From Phallusia mammillata (Eukaryota): a stretch of DNA of 64,000 bases. Every line of letters begins with the position of its first letter. The stretch's first letter is position 1. Shown piece by piece: positions 39,689 to 51,600 of this stretch. The position numbers were made by a program. The stretch is taken from contig OZ281496.1 of NCBI GenBank assembly GCA_965637545.1, forward strand, positions 28,458,001 through 28,522,000. Reading direction: 5' to 3'.

Positions 39689-42600
39689 TTTTCAATGTGA
39701 ATTAACGCAAATAACGTTGAATATAAATTCAATCATTGGTACGTGCGCGTGCCATTAGTTAGTAAATATTGATCAATTCGGTTGGTCGTGTAACAAAGGC
39801 TAACACAAGTGTAGTTTTCTGCACCTTGTTTTCGCATATAGGAGTATACACTGCAGTATACCCAATGCGATAAGAATCTGTAGCAATACGATCCCTAAAA
39901 AAACAGTTTTGTTTGCAAATTTTCTACAATAGAGTTATAGAGCTGACGTAGCGCTTTTAAGCCAAAGCCCTGCAGAATATTGAGTTGTACTTACATTTTA
40001 GTTCTAAACCTTAACATGGAAGCTTGGATTTCGCAGCAGAGAAAAATCTAATAAGCGGTGTATGAAGATGTTTTGAATCAAAAATATACTCATGTAGAAA
40101 ATATCTTTACCCAAGAACACTGAATGTGCTTGTTATTATATAAGGGTGATTCCAGCAGATACGAACAAATAAGCTTAACGGCACTCATAAATCAGTATGC
40201 AAGAGCAGACCGCGATTGTTAATCCCGATTTAGATTTAACGATACTTTTTTTTGTAACATCAAAGGCAAGCATTATTGATTTTTCCATAGAGAGGTAAAC
40301 AGGACCTAAAAATGCCAATTGTGTGCTGAAATCGATATCTTTATGTCGTTCAATAATGCACAGATTGTTACCATGTGCTAAAATCTTCAGCTGTTCTATC
40401 AAAACTAAAAAGCTATTAATACGATAGATTAGATTACCGACTTAAACGTAAATGTTCCAACAAATCTCAAACGAAAAATATGGTGCAGTTGCTACACATA
40501 TTTTGTCCGATAAGTCGGATAAATGTTTTAATACTGCCGGTAGAGCGAAAAGAGATGTTATATTTTTTCGGCTTACATGAGCCATAACGGTGGACTGATA
40601 ATGCCAGCGACATTGTGTTACTAAAACTTACTTTATCTATTTAGGTGTAATGTTTGTTATCATGTAAAATATCTGTGACACTTGATTACTATGGCAAGTA
40701 CTGCAACGCTCCGTATCAAGCTGTTTCGATCTGACACAAGCTGGCTTAAAAATAACCGTAAGGAGCCGGTCCAACGACTGTTGCAGGATTCAATCGAGCA
40801 AGTAGTCACAGAGGAATCAAGTTCAACTTTCGAAAAGGTTCTTACTGATTGCGCTGAAATATGCAGTATCACGCCTATCTATTTGCCGCTTTTCGGGCTA
40901 AAGAATAAGAAAACTTCGCACTGGACGAACCTGGCTTCAACGATACAAAGTTATCTTCAGGAGCAGAGTACGGATGATAGCGATTCGTTGAGTTTATTGT
41001 CTACAGTGTTGGAACTGGAATTCAGAATCCGGTTCCAGTTTAAAGGTGATGCTTTCCGGGTGTCCGAAGAAAACGGAAATACATATCCGGTATACGACCG
41101 GACATTGATTTATCTTTTTCATCAGCATCGGGAAGACTTCCGTTTTGGGCGGCTAAAATTTCACGAACGCACTTCAGAGGACGGAGACAAAAACAACTTA
41201 GGACTAGCTGCATTTGACTTGTTAAGGCTGGGACGTGAGGCAAAACTTGATTATCCCGAAGTGAAGAATAGTGTAAAGTTGAAAAGGCTTCTATCGTGCA
41301 GTTATAATGATATCGTATCGTCCAGAAATGGGTTGCAGATGTTATCAGTGAAGCAAATATTGGTAAAGAGGAGATTCGACAATTACCTGATGCAGTTAAA
41401 GACACGCTACAAGCAATCGACAGAAAGCCTACGCGACCAACTGTATTTTCATCATAAATACGTGAACACCCTGGAAGGTCTGTTGCAATTTAATTATGCG
41501 GAAAGTTACGATGTCATTCCGCAAACAGAAGACCCAGACGAATGTGTAAAAGTGTCTGTTGGGCCATACCTCGAAGTCGTCAAGCATTCTGCAAACGATA
41601 CGGTTGGTTCGCAGTGGTGCAAACTTTCGGACCTTGTATGCATCAACATTGCTGAAAAGAATGCATACTGGACAGTGACATTGGTTCATTTCAGTGGTGA
41701 AACACTGTCTGTAGATCTGGCTTCAAAGTGGGAAGCCGAAGGACTGGTCTCTTGCATCGACGGTTACAACTATCTTCTGGTCGATCCACATTACTACTTG
41801 TGCAAGTCGGTTTGCCGACCTTCGCTTGTTGAGCAAATAAGGCTTTCCTGCCATGGATGTATTTCTTTTGCGCTGGCTTCCCATCTACTAAAGAATCATC
41901 CCAATCCCAGAACCGGAGACTGTATATTAAGATGCAGCAGCGACGAATTCCAAGCTTACTTCATCACTACGATCTCTCAACTCGAACAAGATGGACAAAA
42001 CTTGATCAAAAACTTCAAAATTGCTCGCGATGCAAACGGTTTTGGAATATATGGAGCGGAGAGCCGCCATGAAACTTTGGCCAGTTTGCTTGAAGAGTAC
42101 AAAGATGGTTACGCGAGCAGGATGCAGTTTGAAATTTCGCGGTTGCGACATCCGTTGGTCAAGCAGCAATGTTCAATTTTAGTTCACAAAGGCAAAGAGA
42201 TCAACCCGATTACTACATCCGAACCTACCGAGGTTCCATTAATTTCTCAAGATGCTTACTCTTATGTTGAAAAACTAGGAGGTGGAATGTTTTCGGATGT
42301 TATTCTCCACAAGGATGAAGCCAACAAACTTGTTGTTATCAAACAGATGATTGAGGTTTCGGACTACGGAATACGTCAACACGTTCAGAAATCATTCCAA
42401 GATTCAAGGATCCGCTTCAAACAGCTCAACAACTTCATGGAGGCTGGCCAAAACAAAAGCAAACACATTTTGCAAATTCTTAGTTTTTCTATGCACACAA
42501 ACGTCGTTCTCGAGTACATGCCTTTGGGCTCGATAACAGATCATCTGAGAAAACGCAAAGAATCCCTTGACCAGGATTTGACGTTGCACTTCGTAAGACA

Positions 42601-48600: not shown

Positions 48601-51600
48601 TCCACAGCCATTCCTAGTATTAATGGTGACAAATGGAGCTTTGCAACAACAGTATGTGAAATATGTCATTGGAGTTTGTCCAGTAGTTTCTGCAGGCCTG
48701 AAAACGCTTATGGTCTCAAACCAAATCTTAAAGAAAGGTTCCGAGATCAAGAACAACCAGTTGTTTCACTTCCAGACATGTTAATGGCACCAGAGTTAAA
48801 AACAGTTAGAAATCTGCTGATGAAATGCTGGAGTATTTGGCCTGAAAACAGACCGGCCTTCAGACACATTCTTCGGGAACTTGGTGCAGTTTCAAGCAAC
48901 TTTGACTACCAAAATGTAGAACTTCCACAAACTGCGCCAGAGGAAATTCTACCCGACTTGGATGTATATGATGACCAAAATTTGATGACAGTGCGTTCTT
49001 TGGGAAATGGGCATTTTGGTTACGTTGACTTGTGTCAGTATGACAGGTATCGTAATGGTCAAAATGAACCAGTGGCTGTAAAGTCACTTATTCGGAACGC
49101 TAACAACCAGAAGTACCGCAATATTTTGTACAATGAAATCCAGACAATGCGCCAAATCAATCATCGCTATGTGGTAAAACTGAAAGGAGTTACATTCCCA
49201 TCTGTAAGGATTGTAATGGAGTACCTTGCATGTGGCCCTTTGGGAAAATATCTCCGGGACAACAGTGGAAAAATGCCTCTTCAAAGTTTGTTTCATCAAC
49301 TGTATGTCTTTTCGAGTCAAATTTCAGATGGAATGCAAGCCTTGCAAGAGCATCGACTGATACATCGTGACCTAGCGCTCAGAAATATATTGCTTAATCG
49401 AGATGGAGAGAACTCACCCTTGTATGTAAAAATCTCTGATTTCGGCCTTTCTCGTGTCGTGAATGAGGAGGAATCGTACTACAGAGGAAACCTTGATGAT
49501 TTTCCTGCATTATGGTATGCTCCTGAGTGCCTATGTCCTTCAGACATATCAGTACCTTTTCAGTTTGAGTCTGATGTGTGGTCATTTGGAATTACAATTT
49601 GGGAGATGTTTTCATTCGGAGAAAAAAAGCCAAGGTACCCTTCCTTACCCTCAGTCAAAAGAGAAGACATTGGAAAACTGAGAGAACTGCTGTCAAATGG
49701 GGAAAGGCTTTTGCAGCCTGAGCACTGTCCTCCTGAGGTGTATGATATAATGGGTTTGTGCTGGCAGTTCAACCCACAAGCAAGAATTGGGTTCAATGAT
49801 CTGCAGCAACGCTTTATTGCCCTAGCTGGTAATGCATAGTATGCAAATACTGATCTTTAATGACTGTCTTGGCAATATGGTACATTAAGACAATAGTATA
49901 CAACGCAATCCTGTTCAATTTGGGTTAGATACTATGTTTCAAAAATGTGCAATACATAACACTTTGGAGAAATAATTTGCTTTTCATCACATAATTTTAT
50001 AAAAACATACAAAATTGCGGTTGCAGTTTAATCATGTAGATATGTTGTTGTATTGTTCAGCTGAATGTCAGCATGCACTTTTTTACTTGTTTTCATTCTT
50101 TTGAAATCATTTTCATGAGTTTTATGTGTATCAAACCAAAAAAATTCATTCTTGTGTGTTACTGAATCTGCCTTATGTTTTTTTTACCATTTTTATGTTG
50201 TTGTTGTTGTTGTTTTGTATAACACCCCAGAATGAACTTATCAAACATTTTCAAATTCCGCTCTATGCTTTTACATTTTCACATTTAGTCTGGTACTTTA
50301 TGTAATTGACAAACCTTTCAAATTTGTTGGTGCATATCTACTAATTTTGTGCGACTGCATAATGCTGCAGTTTCCAGTAATACAGTAACACAATAGTTGC
50401 AGCACAGCATACAGACTGCTGGGCCGGTTGCACCAAAAGGCCTGACACATTTGATATCTCCTTCCTGTATTGTTTTCCATTTAAACTCTATTTGTAGTTT
50501 CATGTGGTTGGCTCTGCTATCATCCTTGTTATCGATTGTGTTTTGTTGCTACTGTTGTAATATACTCATTATCCAGTGTTACTTGGAATGGGTCTGGTTA
50601 TTGTGAACCTCAATAAAGGTTACAGAAAAGTCTTTCAAATGACAAATTGTAAACTTTTTCTTGTATTTCTTAGTTCAGTGTGTAAACACAGTAGCCACTT
50701 CATCACAATTTGCTAAATTTTATATAGAATGACCACACTGTCTACCAGTGGCATTGAAACAGCAGAATATATTGATTGTCCCATAGATTTTATTGTATTG
50801 TTTACACAATAAAGGTGAACGCTACATGTCCTTAAAACTTAACCAGTTTTCAAATTTCAAAGACATAATTTTAATTTGAAATAGGCCTCAATAAAACACC
50901 TAAACCCATGTCTTAAACTACTTTTAATTTGAGTTAGGAGAAATAAAGTACAAGGGGAAAATTAGAAGAAAAATGTTGCTGATTGCCGGTAGAGCGCGGT
51001 CTGCTCAAACACACTGTTTGTACAGTACAGGTGTCAGCTTCATGTTGCTACAAACCTGTTTCCCTAATATGCTGGTTGTGTACTTCTGTTCAGTGACGTA
51101 GGCCAGGCCAATGCACTGGTGGGGGAAAAGTTTGGTTTAAAAACTTCTATTGTTTGGGGGGGGGGGGGGGGGGGGGGTTAACCTTCGCCAACAGTTTGGT
51201 TACAAAATAGTTTTGTTGCCAGTGAGTTCAAAAATAAGTTACATAAAAGACATATTAAGGGCGTCTGAGCGCAATTATCGTGCATGCTAGAAACCAAAAA
51301 AGGCCTTATGTTTAAAAACTTAAACATAAAAGTGAATTGGAAAATCTCAAAAGTAAGCTAGTTCATATTAGCATCAAAGTTCTGCATCGTGATTGCTATT
51401 AATGAAATAATTCTTTGTACTGCGCGTTGGAGTATAAACGTGTTTTGCGTTGTTACCTGCTTCCCCTTCTGAGGAACCCGAATACCACGTCAAGGCGTCA
51501 GTCAAAGTAGAATCTTACGGTTTGTTAGGCAGGCACTGGAACATTGCTGACAAAATTTAGCAAAGCACCAAATGCCCTTTCTTTAACAAGGTCAAAACAA

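What the first reader, a model, noticed from the sequence alone, without database searches (positions are those of the whole stretch)
40691..49839. Two tandem JAK genes with completely intronless 3.4-kb coding sequences
Seen: both ORFs encode a full FERM-SH2-pseudokinase-kinase protein in one exon, each with an acceptor just 5' of the ATG. Neighbouring genes are intron-dense (CesA has 28 exons). The two proteins are deeply diverged, and both keep catalytic motifs and activation-loop YY. Established: vertebrate JAK genes have more than 20 coding exons. Inference: retroposition, or wholesale intron loss through cDNA recombination, followed by an old tandem duplication. This would be a JAK diversification independent of vertebrate JAK1/2/3/TYK2.
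Basis: partly seen in the sequence, partly recalled or inferred. Interest (0 to 1): 0.65.

Follow-up and report, generated by a model that had tools for sequence, protein, structure and literature searches.

The report
Two tandem single-exon JAK kinase genes
A sea-squirt-type (tunicate) genome carries two neighbouring, long-diverged Janus kinase genes whose whole protein-coding parts lack introns, most likely a further case of the mRNA-derived intronless genes already described in tunicates.

Summary
Window 40691-44044 and 46447-49839 (+ strand) are uninterrupted ORFs of 1117 and 1130 aa. Both have the full JAK layout: FERM, SH2, pseudokinase (HGN/DPG) and active kinase (VAVK, HRDLALRN, DFG, YY, APE). 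They are 43-45% identical, with synonymous sites saturated. On one phmmer scale they are far closer to each other (950 bits) than to any JAK in the PDB (295-335 bits).

The neighbours are multi-exon. One is the GT2+GH6 cellulose synthase, which marks the genome as tunicate.

The best reading is mRNA-mediated loss of all coding introns, by retrogene replacement or cDNA recombination, followed by an old tandem duplication. No poly(A) remnant or target-site duplication survives. I could not search for a parental gene, compare other tunicates or build a tree.

The literature already reports two Jak genes in Ciona (PMC11094015). It also calls retroduplication with parent loss common in Ciona (Kim 2014, via PMC5803294 and PMC5408686). 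This is a new member of a known kind, of moderate interest.

The parts
40691..44044 (+). JAK-A: single uninterrupted coding exon, 1117 aa (P0001)
   Evidence: ORF. Pfam domains. Best PDB hit is full-length JAK1 7t6f at 294.8 bits. An in-frame stop at 40676-40678 lies between the nearest upstream AG (40644) and the ATG, read.
40691..42190 (+). JAK-A FERM (about aa 1-380) and SH2 (about aa 381-500); limits approximate
   Evidence: Pfam FERM_F1 37-85, FERM_F2 137-264, SH2_1 386-473. Aligns to JAK2 FERM-SH2 4z32 over residues 47-500, E=9e-30.
42233..43090 (+). JAK-A pseudokinase (JH2), approximate limits; HGNIR at aa 652, DPG at aa 675
   Evidence: Second tyrosine-kinase stretch; motifs.
43178..44005 (+). 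JAK-A kinase (JH1): GAGYYG 840, VAVK 861, HRDLALRN 958, DFG 983, YY 996, APE 1010
   Evidence: Pfam PK_Tyr_Ser-Thr 834-1097; motifs; JAK2 kinase domain 179.2 bits.
40626..40644 (+). Acceptor-like site upstream of JAK-A: pyrimidine tract plus AG, with a TACTAAA branch-like motif just upstream
   Evidence: 11 of 14 pyrimidines; such sites occur at 0.84 per kb. Sequence. Its use as a splice or trans-splice site is not shown.
46447..49839 (+). JAK-B: single uninterrupted coding exon, 1130 aa (P0002)
   Evidence: ORF. Pfam. Best PDB hit is JAK1 7t6f at 334.5 bits. The frame stays open for 19 codons upstream of the ATG, so an extra 5' coding exon is not strictly excluded for B.
46447..47961 (+). JAK-B FERM (about aa 1-385) and SH2 (about aa 386-505); limits approximate
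   Evidence: Pfam FERM_F1 35-112, FERM_F2 137-262, Jak1_Phl 297-370 (below cut-off), SH2_1 388-447 (below cut-off). JAK2 FERM-SH2 E=6e-44 over residues 46-428.
48010..48891 (+). JAK-B pseudokinase (JH2), approximate limits; HGNIR at aa 659, DPG at aa 682
48979..49821 (+). JAK-B kinase (JH1): GNGHFG 853, VAVK 876, HRDLALRN 973, DFG 998, YY 1011, APE 1025
   Evidence: Pfam 848-1122; motifs; JAK1 kinase domain 176 bits.
46425..46440 (+). AG 6 nt before the JAK-B ATG; weak acceptor-like site
   Evidence: 8 of 14 pyrimidines, which is not unusual for this DNA.
44045..46446 (.). 2402-nt spacer between the two genes. It holds AATAAA/ATTAAA signals from 44309 on and a MITE-like inverted-repeat element at 45828-46259

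Best explanation
These are two functional Janus kinase paralogues of a tunicate. Each is translated from one coding exon.

Inferred mode of action, by family homology: the FERM-SH2 half binds the box1/box2 region of a cytokine-type receptor. The pseudokinase restrains the C-terminal kinase. Receptor dimerisation allows trans-phosphorylation of the activation-loop YY, and STATs are then phosphorylated.

Inferred origin: an ancestral multi-exon JAK lost all of its coding introns at once through a spliced-mRNA intermediate. This happened either by retroposition with later loss of the parent (retrogene replacement) or by recombination of a cDNA into the locus. The intronless gene then duplicated in tandem long ago, and both copies were kept under purifying selection. 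The acceptor-like site 46 nt upstream of JAK-A suggests a non-coding 5' exon or a spliced-leader trans-splice site. Either would supply the 5' end that a retrogene lacks.
For: Shown here:
- Intact ORFs of 1117 and 1130 aa against a chance maximum of 189 aa in 20 shuffles.
- Complete JAK domain order and motifs in both.
- Same strand, 2402 nt apart.
- 43-45% identity, pS 0.82 (saturated) and dN 0.51, so an old duplication with constraint on both copies.
- A-B similarity far above similarity to any PDB JAK on the same phmmer scale.
- No indel longer than 12 aa, so no concealed in-frame intron.
- Neighbouring genes are split into several coding pieces.
- A young LTR retrotransposon (237-nt LTRs, 98% identical; Pao peptidase, RT and integrase) lies 22 kb away, so reverse transcriptase was encoded in this genome recently.

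From papers (passages only):
- Retrogene replacement is 'relatively common' in Ciona, and Ciona SYCP1 is a single-exon replacement (PMC5803294).
- Retroduplication with parent loss is called a major mechanism for intronless genes in tunicates (PMC5408686).

Inference: two independent retropositions landing side by side in the same orientation are unlikely, so intron loss probably preceded the duplication.
Against: - No retroposition hallmark is left. There is no A-run of at least 8 in the 1.5 kb after either stop. Shared words between the flanks are at chance level (7 shared 10-mers observed; 200 shuffles gave mean 5.3, maximum 15).
- The ancestral exon structure was not examined here. The exon count of vertebrate JAK genes is recalled only.
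- No search for a parental copy, no synteny test and no tree were possible.
- 15% of non-operon Ciona genes are single-exon anyway (PMC2760879), so intronlessness is not rare in this group.
- Expression, kinase activity and use of the upstream AG sites are untested.
- The acceptor at JAK-B is not better than chance.
Confidence: 0.55

Rival explanations
1. Stepwise intron loss. The tunicate JAK lost its introns one by one, by genomic deletions or repeated partial cDNA conversions, in the course of the general intron turnover of fast-evolving tunicate genomes. No retroposed copy was ever made.
For: No poly(A) remnant or target-site duplication is present. Tunicates show strong intron turnover, and homologous recombination with spliced mRNA is discussed for Oikopleura (passages of PMC4122922).
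Against: Every coding intron is gone from 3.4 kb in both copies, while the adjacent CesA and LCCL/lectin genes remain split. An all-or-none pattern is what one full-length cDNA event gives. After saturation of synonymous sites, the hallmarks would be erased in either case.
Confidence: 0.2
2. Duplication first. An intron-containing JAK duplicated in tandem, and each copy lost all its introns independently afterwards.
For: Nothing in the window gives the order of events directly. The GC3 of the two genes differs (0.467 against 0.335), which shows long separate histories.
Against: It needs the complete loss to happen twice. Both copies share the same end state and the same N- and C-terminal limits.
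Confidence: 0.1
3. Ancient paralogues. The two genes descend from a duplication older than the tunicate-vertebrate split and are orthologues of different vertebrate subfamilies.
For: The kinase domains have slightly different best hits. For A, JAK2 scores 179.2 bits, and no separate JAK1 kinase-domain chain is among the 60 rows listed (lowest listed 166.9). For B, JAK1 scores 176.0, TYK2 173.3, JAK2 171.8 and JAK3 169.6.
Against: A and B score 287 bits to each other over the same domain, 384 bits over the FERM-SH2 half and 950 bits overall, against 107-335 bits to vertebrate JAKs. Both N-terminal halves rank JAK2 > JAK1 > TYK2 alike. The differences among vertebrate hits are a few bits for B. 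A review passage derives the four vertebrate JAKs from the vertebrate 1R/2R duplications (PMC3670263).
Confidence: 0.05
4. One or both copies are unexpressed processed pseudogenes that only look intact.
For: No expression data were available, and no promoter could be identified.
Against: A dead copy could not keep a 3.4-kb frame open while synonymous sites saturate. All catalytic and pseudokinase motifs are kept in both. Both start codons have A at -3 and G at +4.
Confidence: 0.03

Closest known systems
Vertebrate JAK1, JAK2, JAK3 and TYK2
   Same: Same four-part architecture and the same hallmark motifs: HGN and DPG in the pseudokinase, YY in the activation loop. Best PDB matches are full-length JAK1 (7t6f) and JAK2 FERM-SH2 (4z32, 6e2p).
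   Different: The coding sequence is in one exon, whereas vertebrate genes have more than 20 exons (recalled, not checked). Similarity is low: the kinase domain of A scores almost as well against RET and SYK as against JAKs. The duplication is separate from the vertebrate one, judged by score comparison and not by a tree.
Ciona Jak-a (KH.C1.555) and Jak-b (KH.C8.409)
   Same: A tunicate with two Jak genes is already on record (passage of PMC11094015). These may be orthologues of the two genes here.
   Different: The Ciona identifiers point to chromosomes 1 and 8, and Ciona CesA is on chromosome 7 (PMC8916719, PMC7464555). Here the two JAKs are adjacent to each other and to CesA. The published Jak-a 5'-UTR morpholino target is absent from the window (0 matches at up to 3 mismatches). 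An older review still gives Ciona a single JAK (PMC3670263). I found no statement on the exon structure of the Ciona genes.
Retrogene replacement ('orphan retrogenes'), e.g. amphioxus and Ciona SYCP1; Kim et al. 2014 for Ciona
   Same: A long single coding exon (about 3.2 kb in AmphiSYCP1) stands in for a gene that is multi-exonic in other animals. The case is reported from invertebrate chordates and is said to be relatively common in Ciona (PMC5803294; PMC5408686).
   Different: Loss of the parent and a change of locus are not shown for JAK here. The retrogene has in addition duplicated in tandem. Whether JAK is in the gene list of Kim et al. is unknown, because the paper is not held and supplements are closed.
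Drosophila Hopscotch, the single invertebrate JAK
   Same: It has the archetypal JAK architecture, which predates the protostome-deuterostome split (passage of PMC3670263).
   Different: It is a single gene.

Membership tests
Janus kinase (JAK) family | N-terminal FERM domain (F1, F2, F3) | tested here: met
   Pfam FERM_F2 is above cut-off in both. FERM_F1 is above cut-off in B and below it in A (22.5 against 26.1). Jak1_Phl and FERM_C in B are below cut-off. phmmer aligns A 47-500 and B 46-428 to the JAK2 FERM-SH2 crystal chains.
Janus kinase (JAK) family | SH2-like domain between FERM and the kinase domains | tested here: met
   Pfam SH2_1: A 35.7 bits (cut-off 27); B 20.1 bits, below cut-off. 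The JAK1 and JAK2 FERM-SH2 chains align through this region in both.
Janus kinase (JAK) family | Pseudokinase (JH2) without the catalytic Asp (HGN in place of HRD) and with DPG in place of DFG | tested here: met
   HGNIR at A 652 and B 659. DPG at A 675 and B 682. Pfam finds two kinase stretches in each protein. That these motifs define JH2 is recalled knowledge.
Janus kinase (JAK) family | C-terminal active tyrosine kinase (JH1) with a tandem YY in the activation loop | tested here: met
   The glycine loop, VAVK, HRDLALRN, DFG, YY and APE are all present in both. JAK kinase domains are the best single-domain PDB hits.
Janus kinase (JAK) family | Binds cytokine-receptor tails and phosphorylates STATs | not testable with these tools
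   This needs biochemistry. No receptor or STAT gene lies in the window.
Processed retrogene / retrogene replacement | Lacks the introns of its parent or its orthologues | tested here: inconclusive
   The coding sequence is intron-free in both genes. The intron-rich state of orthologues is recalled only and was not examined here.
Processed retrogene / retrogene replacement | Poly(A) remnant at the 3' end | tested here: not met
   No run of at least 8 A within 1.5 kb after either stop. Erasure is expected at this age (pS saturated).
Processed retrogene / retrogene replacement | Flanking target-site duplication | tested here: not met
   Only 10-13-nt AT-rich matches occur between the flanks, at chance level (7 shared 10-mers observed; shuffles gave mean 5.3, maximum 15). 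None is listed by the repeat finder among the 20 of 39 direct-repeat families shown.
Processed retrogene / retrogene replacement | New locus, with the parental multi-exon gene present elsewhere or lost | not testable with these tools
   Only this window is available. tblastn of both proteins against the window finds nothing beyond the two genes at E up to 1.
Tandem gene duplicates | Adjacent, same orientation, homologous over their full length | tested here: met
   Same strand, 2402 nt apart, aligned over residues 9-1102 of A and 13-1127 of B.
Ascidian operon (polycistronic, SL trans-spliced) | Very short or no intercistronic spacer | tested here: not met
   The spacer is 2402 nt and holds polyadenylation signals and a MITE-like element. 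The rule that operon spacers are short is recalled.

The most novel reading that the evidence does not exclude
JAK underwent retrogene replacement early in tunicate evolution, and the intronless gene then duplicated. Tunicates would thus have built a two-JAK system independently of the vertebrate genome duplications, possibly one that works as a heteromeric pair. Spliced-leader trans-splicing, or a captured 5' exon at the acceptor 46 nt upstream of JAK-A, would have let a promoter-less cDNA copy of a 3.4-kb signalling gene take over an essential role. The Ciona Jak-a and Jak-b genes on different chromosomes would be dispersed descendants of this tandem pair.
Probability: 0.2. Interest if true: 0.55.

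Novelty: new member of a known kind. Interest (0 to 1): 0.35.

Why it matters
JAK is the sole kinase family of the JAK-STAT pathway, and reviews date its expansion to the vertebrate genome duplications (PMC3670263). A separate, old duplication in the sister group of vertebrates offers a natural comparison for how paired JAKs divide their work.

A 3.4-kb signalling gene replaced by an intronless copy would also be one of the larger examples of retrogene replacement in chordates. The locus shows a neat contrast as well. CesA, which came from bacteria and so began without introns (PMC7464555), is now split into many exons. The animal gene next to it has lost all of its coding introns.

The mechanism and the existence of two tunicate JAKs are both already in print, so the gain is incremental.

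Tried and rejected
- Structure prediction. The first 520 aa of JAK-A with the two-row alignment A1 gave mean pLDDT 32.9 and pTM 0.24. The model is unusable, so no fold search was run.
- ESM Atlas search with the 665-aa open frame P0003. The best score was 0.77 to a viral UL135 cluster, below the level that counts as a lead.
- Rfam at gathering threshold and ARAGORN on the whole window each gave 0 hits.
- Pfam on single open frames. In one search, 9 of 10 gave nothing. In one search, 9 of 10 gave nothing, and the one hit (S_locus_glycop, 17.9 bits, below cut-off) is taken as chance. In one search, 10 of 10 gave nothing. I therefore could not count CesA exons or name the genes right of 50 kb.
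- Search for the Ciona Jak-a morpholino target: 0 matches.
- Search for flank repeats as target-site duplications: chance level.
- Literature. In the listings and the passages I read, none described the exon structure or a tandem arrangement of tunicate JAK genes. Tokuoka 2022 and Kim 2014 are not held, Hino 2003 was not looked up, and supplements are closed, so such a statement may exist there.
- Operon reading rejected because the spacer is 2.4 kb.
- Assembly or haplotype duplicate rejected because identity is only 43%.
No relatives from other animals could therefore be fetched.

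
Full report
**The observation**

The window has no N, and I do not take it for human. Between 39000 and 51500 there are exactly two ATG ORFs of at least 150 aa, both on the + strand. They are 40691-44044 (1117 aa, here JAK-A, P0001) and 46447-49839 (1130 aa, JAK-B, P0002). With 6.5% stop codons expected from base composition, the chance of an open frame of this length is about 1e-32.5. In 20 of 20 shuffles of the window the longest open frame was 122-189 aa.

**What the two proteins are**

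Pfam gives each protein two tyrosine-kinase stretches, FERM_F1, FERM_F2 and SH2_1. Three of these N-terminal hits are below the curated cut-off: F1 in A, SH2 in B, and Jak1_Phl/FERM_C in B.

Against the PDB, the best full-length match of both is JAK1 (7t6f; A 294.8, B 334.5 bits). The first 520 residues of each match only JAK FERM-SH2 chains, 7 of 7 hits, in the order JAK2, JAK1, TYK2 (A 107/68/27 bits; B 154/89/56).

The C-terminal kinase has the glycine loop, VAVK, HRDLALRN, DFG, YY and APE. The preceding domain has HGNIR and DPG, the pseudokinase signature (recalled). Membership of the JAK family is therefore met on every sequence criterion. The kinase domain alone is only weakly JAK-specific: for A, RET scores 170.7 and SYK 167.9 bits against 179.2 for JAK2.

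**Are the coding sequences really undivided?**

A and B align end to end (BLASTP 491/1134; MAFFT 492/1086). The largest indel is 12 aa. None of the 8 indels of at least 4 aa has GT...AG ends, so no in-frame intron is hidden in either.

For A, an in-frame stop at 40676-40678 lies between the nearest upstream AG (ending at 40644) and the ATG. The whole coding sequence is therefore in one exon. For B, the frame stays open for 19 codons upstream and the AG at 46440 falls inside it. A further 5' coding exon is thus not formally excluded, but the two N-termini match in length and sequence. Both ATGs have A at -3 and G at +4.

For B the tract is ordinary, with 8 of 14 pyrimidines. Whether either is a 5'-UTR intron end or a spliced-leader acceptor cannot be told without transcripts.

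**Surroundings**

I searched the spliced neighbours one open frame at a time. I made no joined gene model and searched none.

- On the minus strand, 25722-26516 matches GT2/cellulose synthase, 22752-23270 matches the middle of GH6, and 21152-21496 matches the end of GH6. This is the GT2+GH6 fusion typical of tunicate CesA, a gene found in no other animal (passages of PMC7464555). The genome is therefore a tunicate's.
- That makes at least 3 colinear pieces. In 19900-36000 there are 34 minus-strand and 12 plus-strand open frames of at least 70 aa. The figure of 28 exons is unverified.
- At 724-7668 (minus strand) three separate frames carry a C-type lectin domain and two LCCL domains.
- A BEL/Pao LTR retrotransposon lies at 13228-19010. 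Its 237-nt LTRs are 98% identical.
- tblastn finds no further JAK fragment in the window.

**Age and relationship of the two genes**

Synonymous differences are saturated (pS 0.82), while dN is 0.51. Identity by region is FERM 47%, SH2 35%, JH2 43% and JH1 54%.

| Region | A to B (bits) | A to best PDB JAK (bits) | B to best PDB JAK (bits) |
|---|---|---|---|
| Full length | 950 | 295 | 335 |
| N-terminal half (520 aa) | 384 | 107 | 154 |
| JH1 kinase domain | 287 | 179 | 176 |

All values are on the same phmmer scale. This is not a tree, but it speaks for a duplication inside the tunicate lineage and against orthology to different vertebrate subfamilies.

**Origin of the intronless state**

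There is no poly(A) remnant and no target-site duplication, as expected after so much time. The all-or-none absence of introns from both genes, beside split neighbours, fits one spliced-mRNA event followed by tandem duplication. It cannot separate retroposition with parent loss from cDNA recombination in place.

**What is already known** (passages only, unless stated)

- A 2013 review gives Ciona a single JAK and derives the four vertebrate JAKs from 1R/2R (PMC3670263).
- A 2024 paper cites genome surveys for two, Jak-a KH.C1.555 and Jak-b KH.C8.409 (PMC11094015).
- Ciona CesA is on chromosome 7 (PMC8916719; PMC7464555), and the Jak-a morpholino target is absent here. The window is therefore probably not from Ciona robusta, and the tandem arrangement next to CesA differs from Ciona.
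- In Ciona, 15% of non-operon genes and 38% of operon genes are single-exon (PMC2760879).
- Retrogene replacement is called relatively common in Ciona, and retroduplication with parent loss a major mechanism for intronless genes in tunicates. Both statements cite Kim et al. 2014 (PMC5803294; PMC5408686). I could not read that paper or any supplements, so JAK may already be on its list.
- Five further papers read by passages contain nothing on tunicate JAK gene structure: PMC13203501, PMC7249569, PMC13588380, PMC8794889 and bioRxiv 10.64898/2026.05.30.728932.

**Verdict**

The feature is real and correctly described. The evolutionary reading is reasonable but untested at its decisive points: a parental copy, other tunicates, and a tree. 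Both of its ingredients, two tunicate JAKs and intronless genes made through mRNA, are already in the literature. I rate it a new member of a known kind, with interest 0.35.

Noticed in passing
window 13228-19010 (+): BEL/Pao LTR retrotransposon with 237-nt LTRs that are 98% identical (13228-13464 and 18774-19010). Its open frames carry DUF1759, RT, Pao peptidase (13936-17019) and integrase plus DUF5641 (17490-18704). The frames differ, so pol is interrupted or frameshifted. GC is about 0.48 against 0.38 for the window.
   Followed up: partly
window 45828-46259: MITE-like element about 190 nt upstream of the JAK-B ATG. Two inverted arms are each built of 31-nt tandem repeats (6 matches to the unit at up to 3 mismatches, 3 on each strand). 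The arms are up to 95% complementary, the ends are GGGTGTATG...CATACACCC, and the element is flanked by the same 9 nt (AGAAAAAAG) on both sides.
   Followed up: partly
window 39253-39687: Two copies of a 176-nt tandem repeat (80% matches), followed by a (GT)15.5 microsatellite, about 1 kb upstream of JAK-A.
   Followed up: no
window 10252-10426: Perfect tandem repeat of 4.0 copies of 44 nt (100% matches), inside the region of the minus-strand LCCL/lectin gene or just beyond it.
   Followed up: no
window 52257-54254 (-): A 665-codon open frame with GC 0.51. It encodes a serine-, arginine- and lysine-rich, probably disordered sequence that starts without an ATG after a hydrophobic stretch and ends in ...VMTDL. 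It is likely the large last exon of a membrane protein's cytoplasmic tail. There is no Pfam hit, and the Atlas best score of 0.77 is not evidence.
   Followed up: partly
window 724-7668 (-): A multi-exon gene for an extracellular-type protein. Separate open frames carry a C-type lectin domain (724-1071) and two LCCL domains (2854-3090 and 7420-7668).
   Followed up: partly
window 21152-26516 (-) beside 40691 (+): The tunicate cellulose synthase (GT2+GH6), of bacterial and thus intron-free origin, is now split into several exons. It lies head to head with JAK-A, which has lost all its coding introns. In Ciona, CesA (chromosome 7) is not on the chromosomes named for the two Jak genes.
   Followed up: partly
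window 40691-44041 and 46447-49836: Third-position GC differs clearly between the paralogues: JAK-A 0.467, JAK-B 0.335. Other coding pieces in the window range from 0.35 to 0.51. The cause is unknown; it could be expression level or local composition.
   Followed up: no
window 40647-40664: A five-codon upstream open frame (ATG...ATG TAA) lies between the acceptor-like AG and the JAK-A start codon.
   Followed up: no
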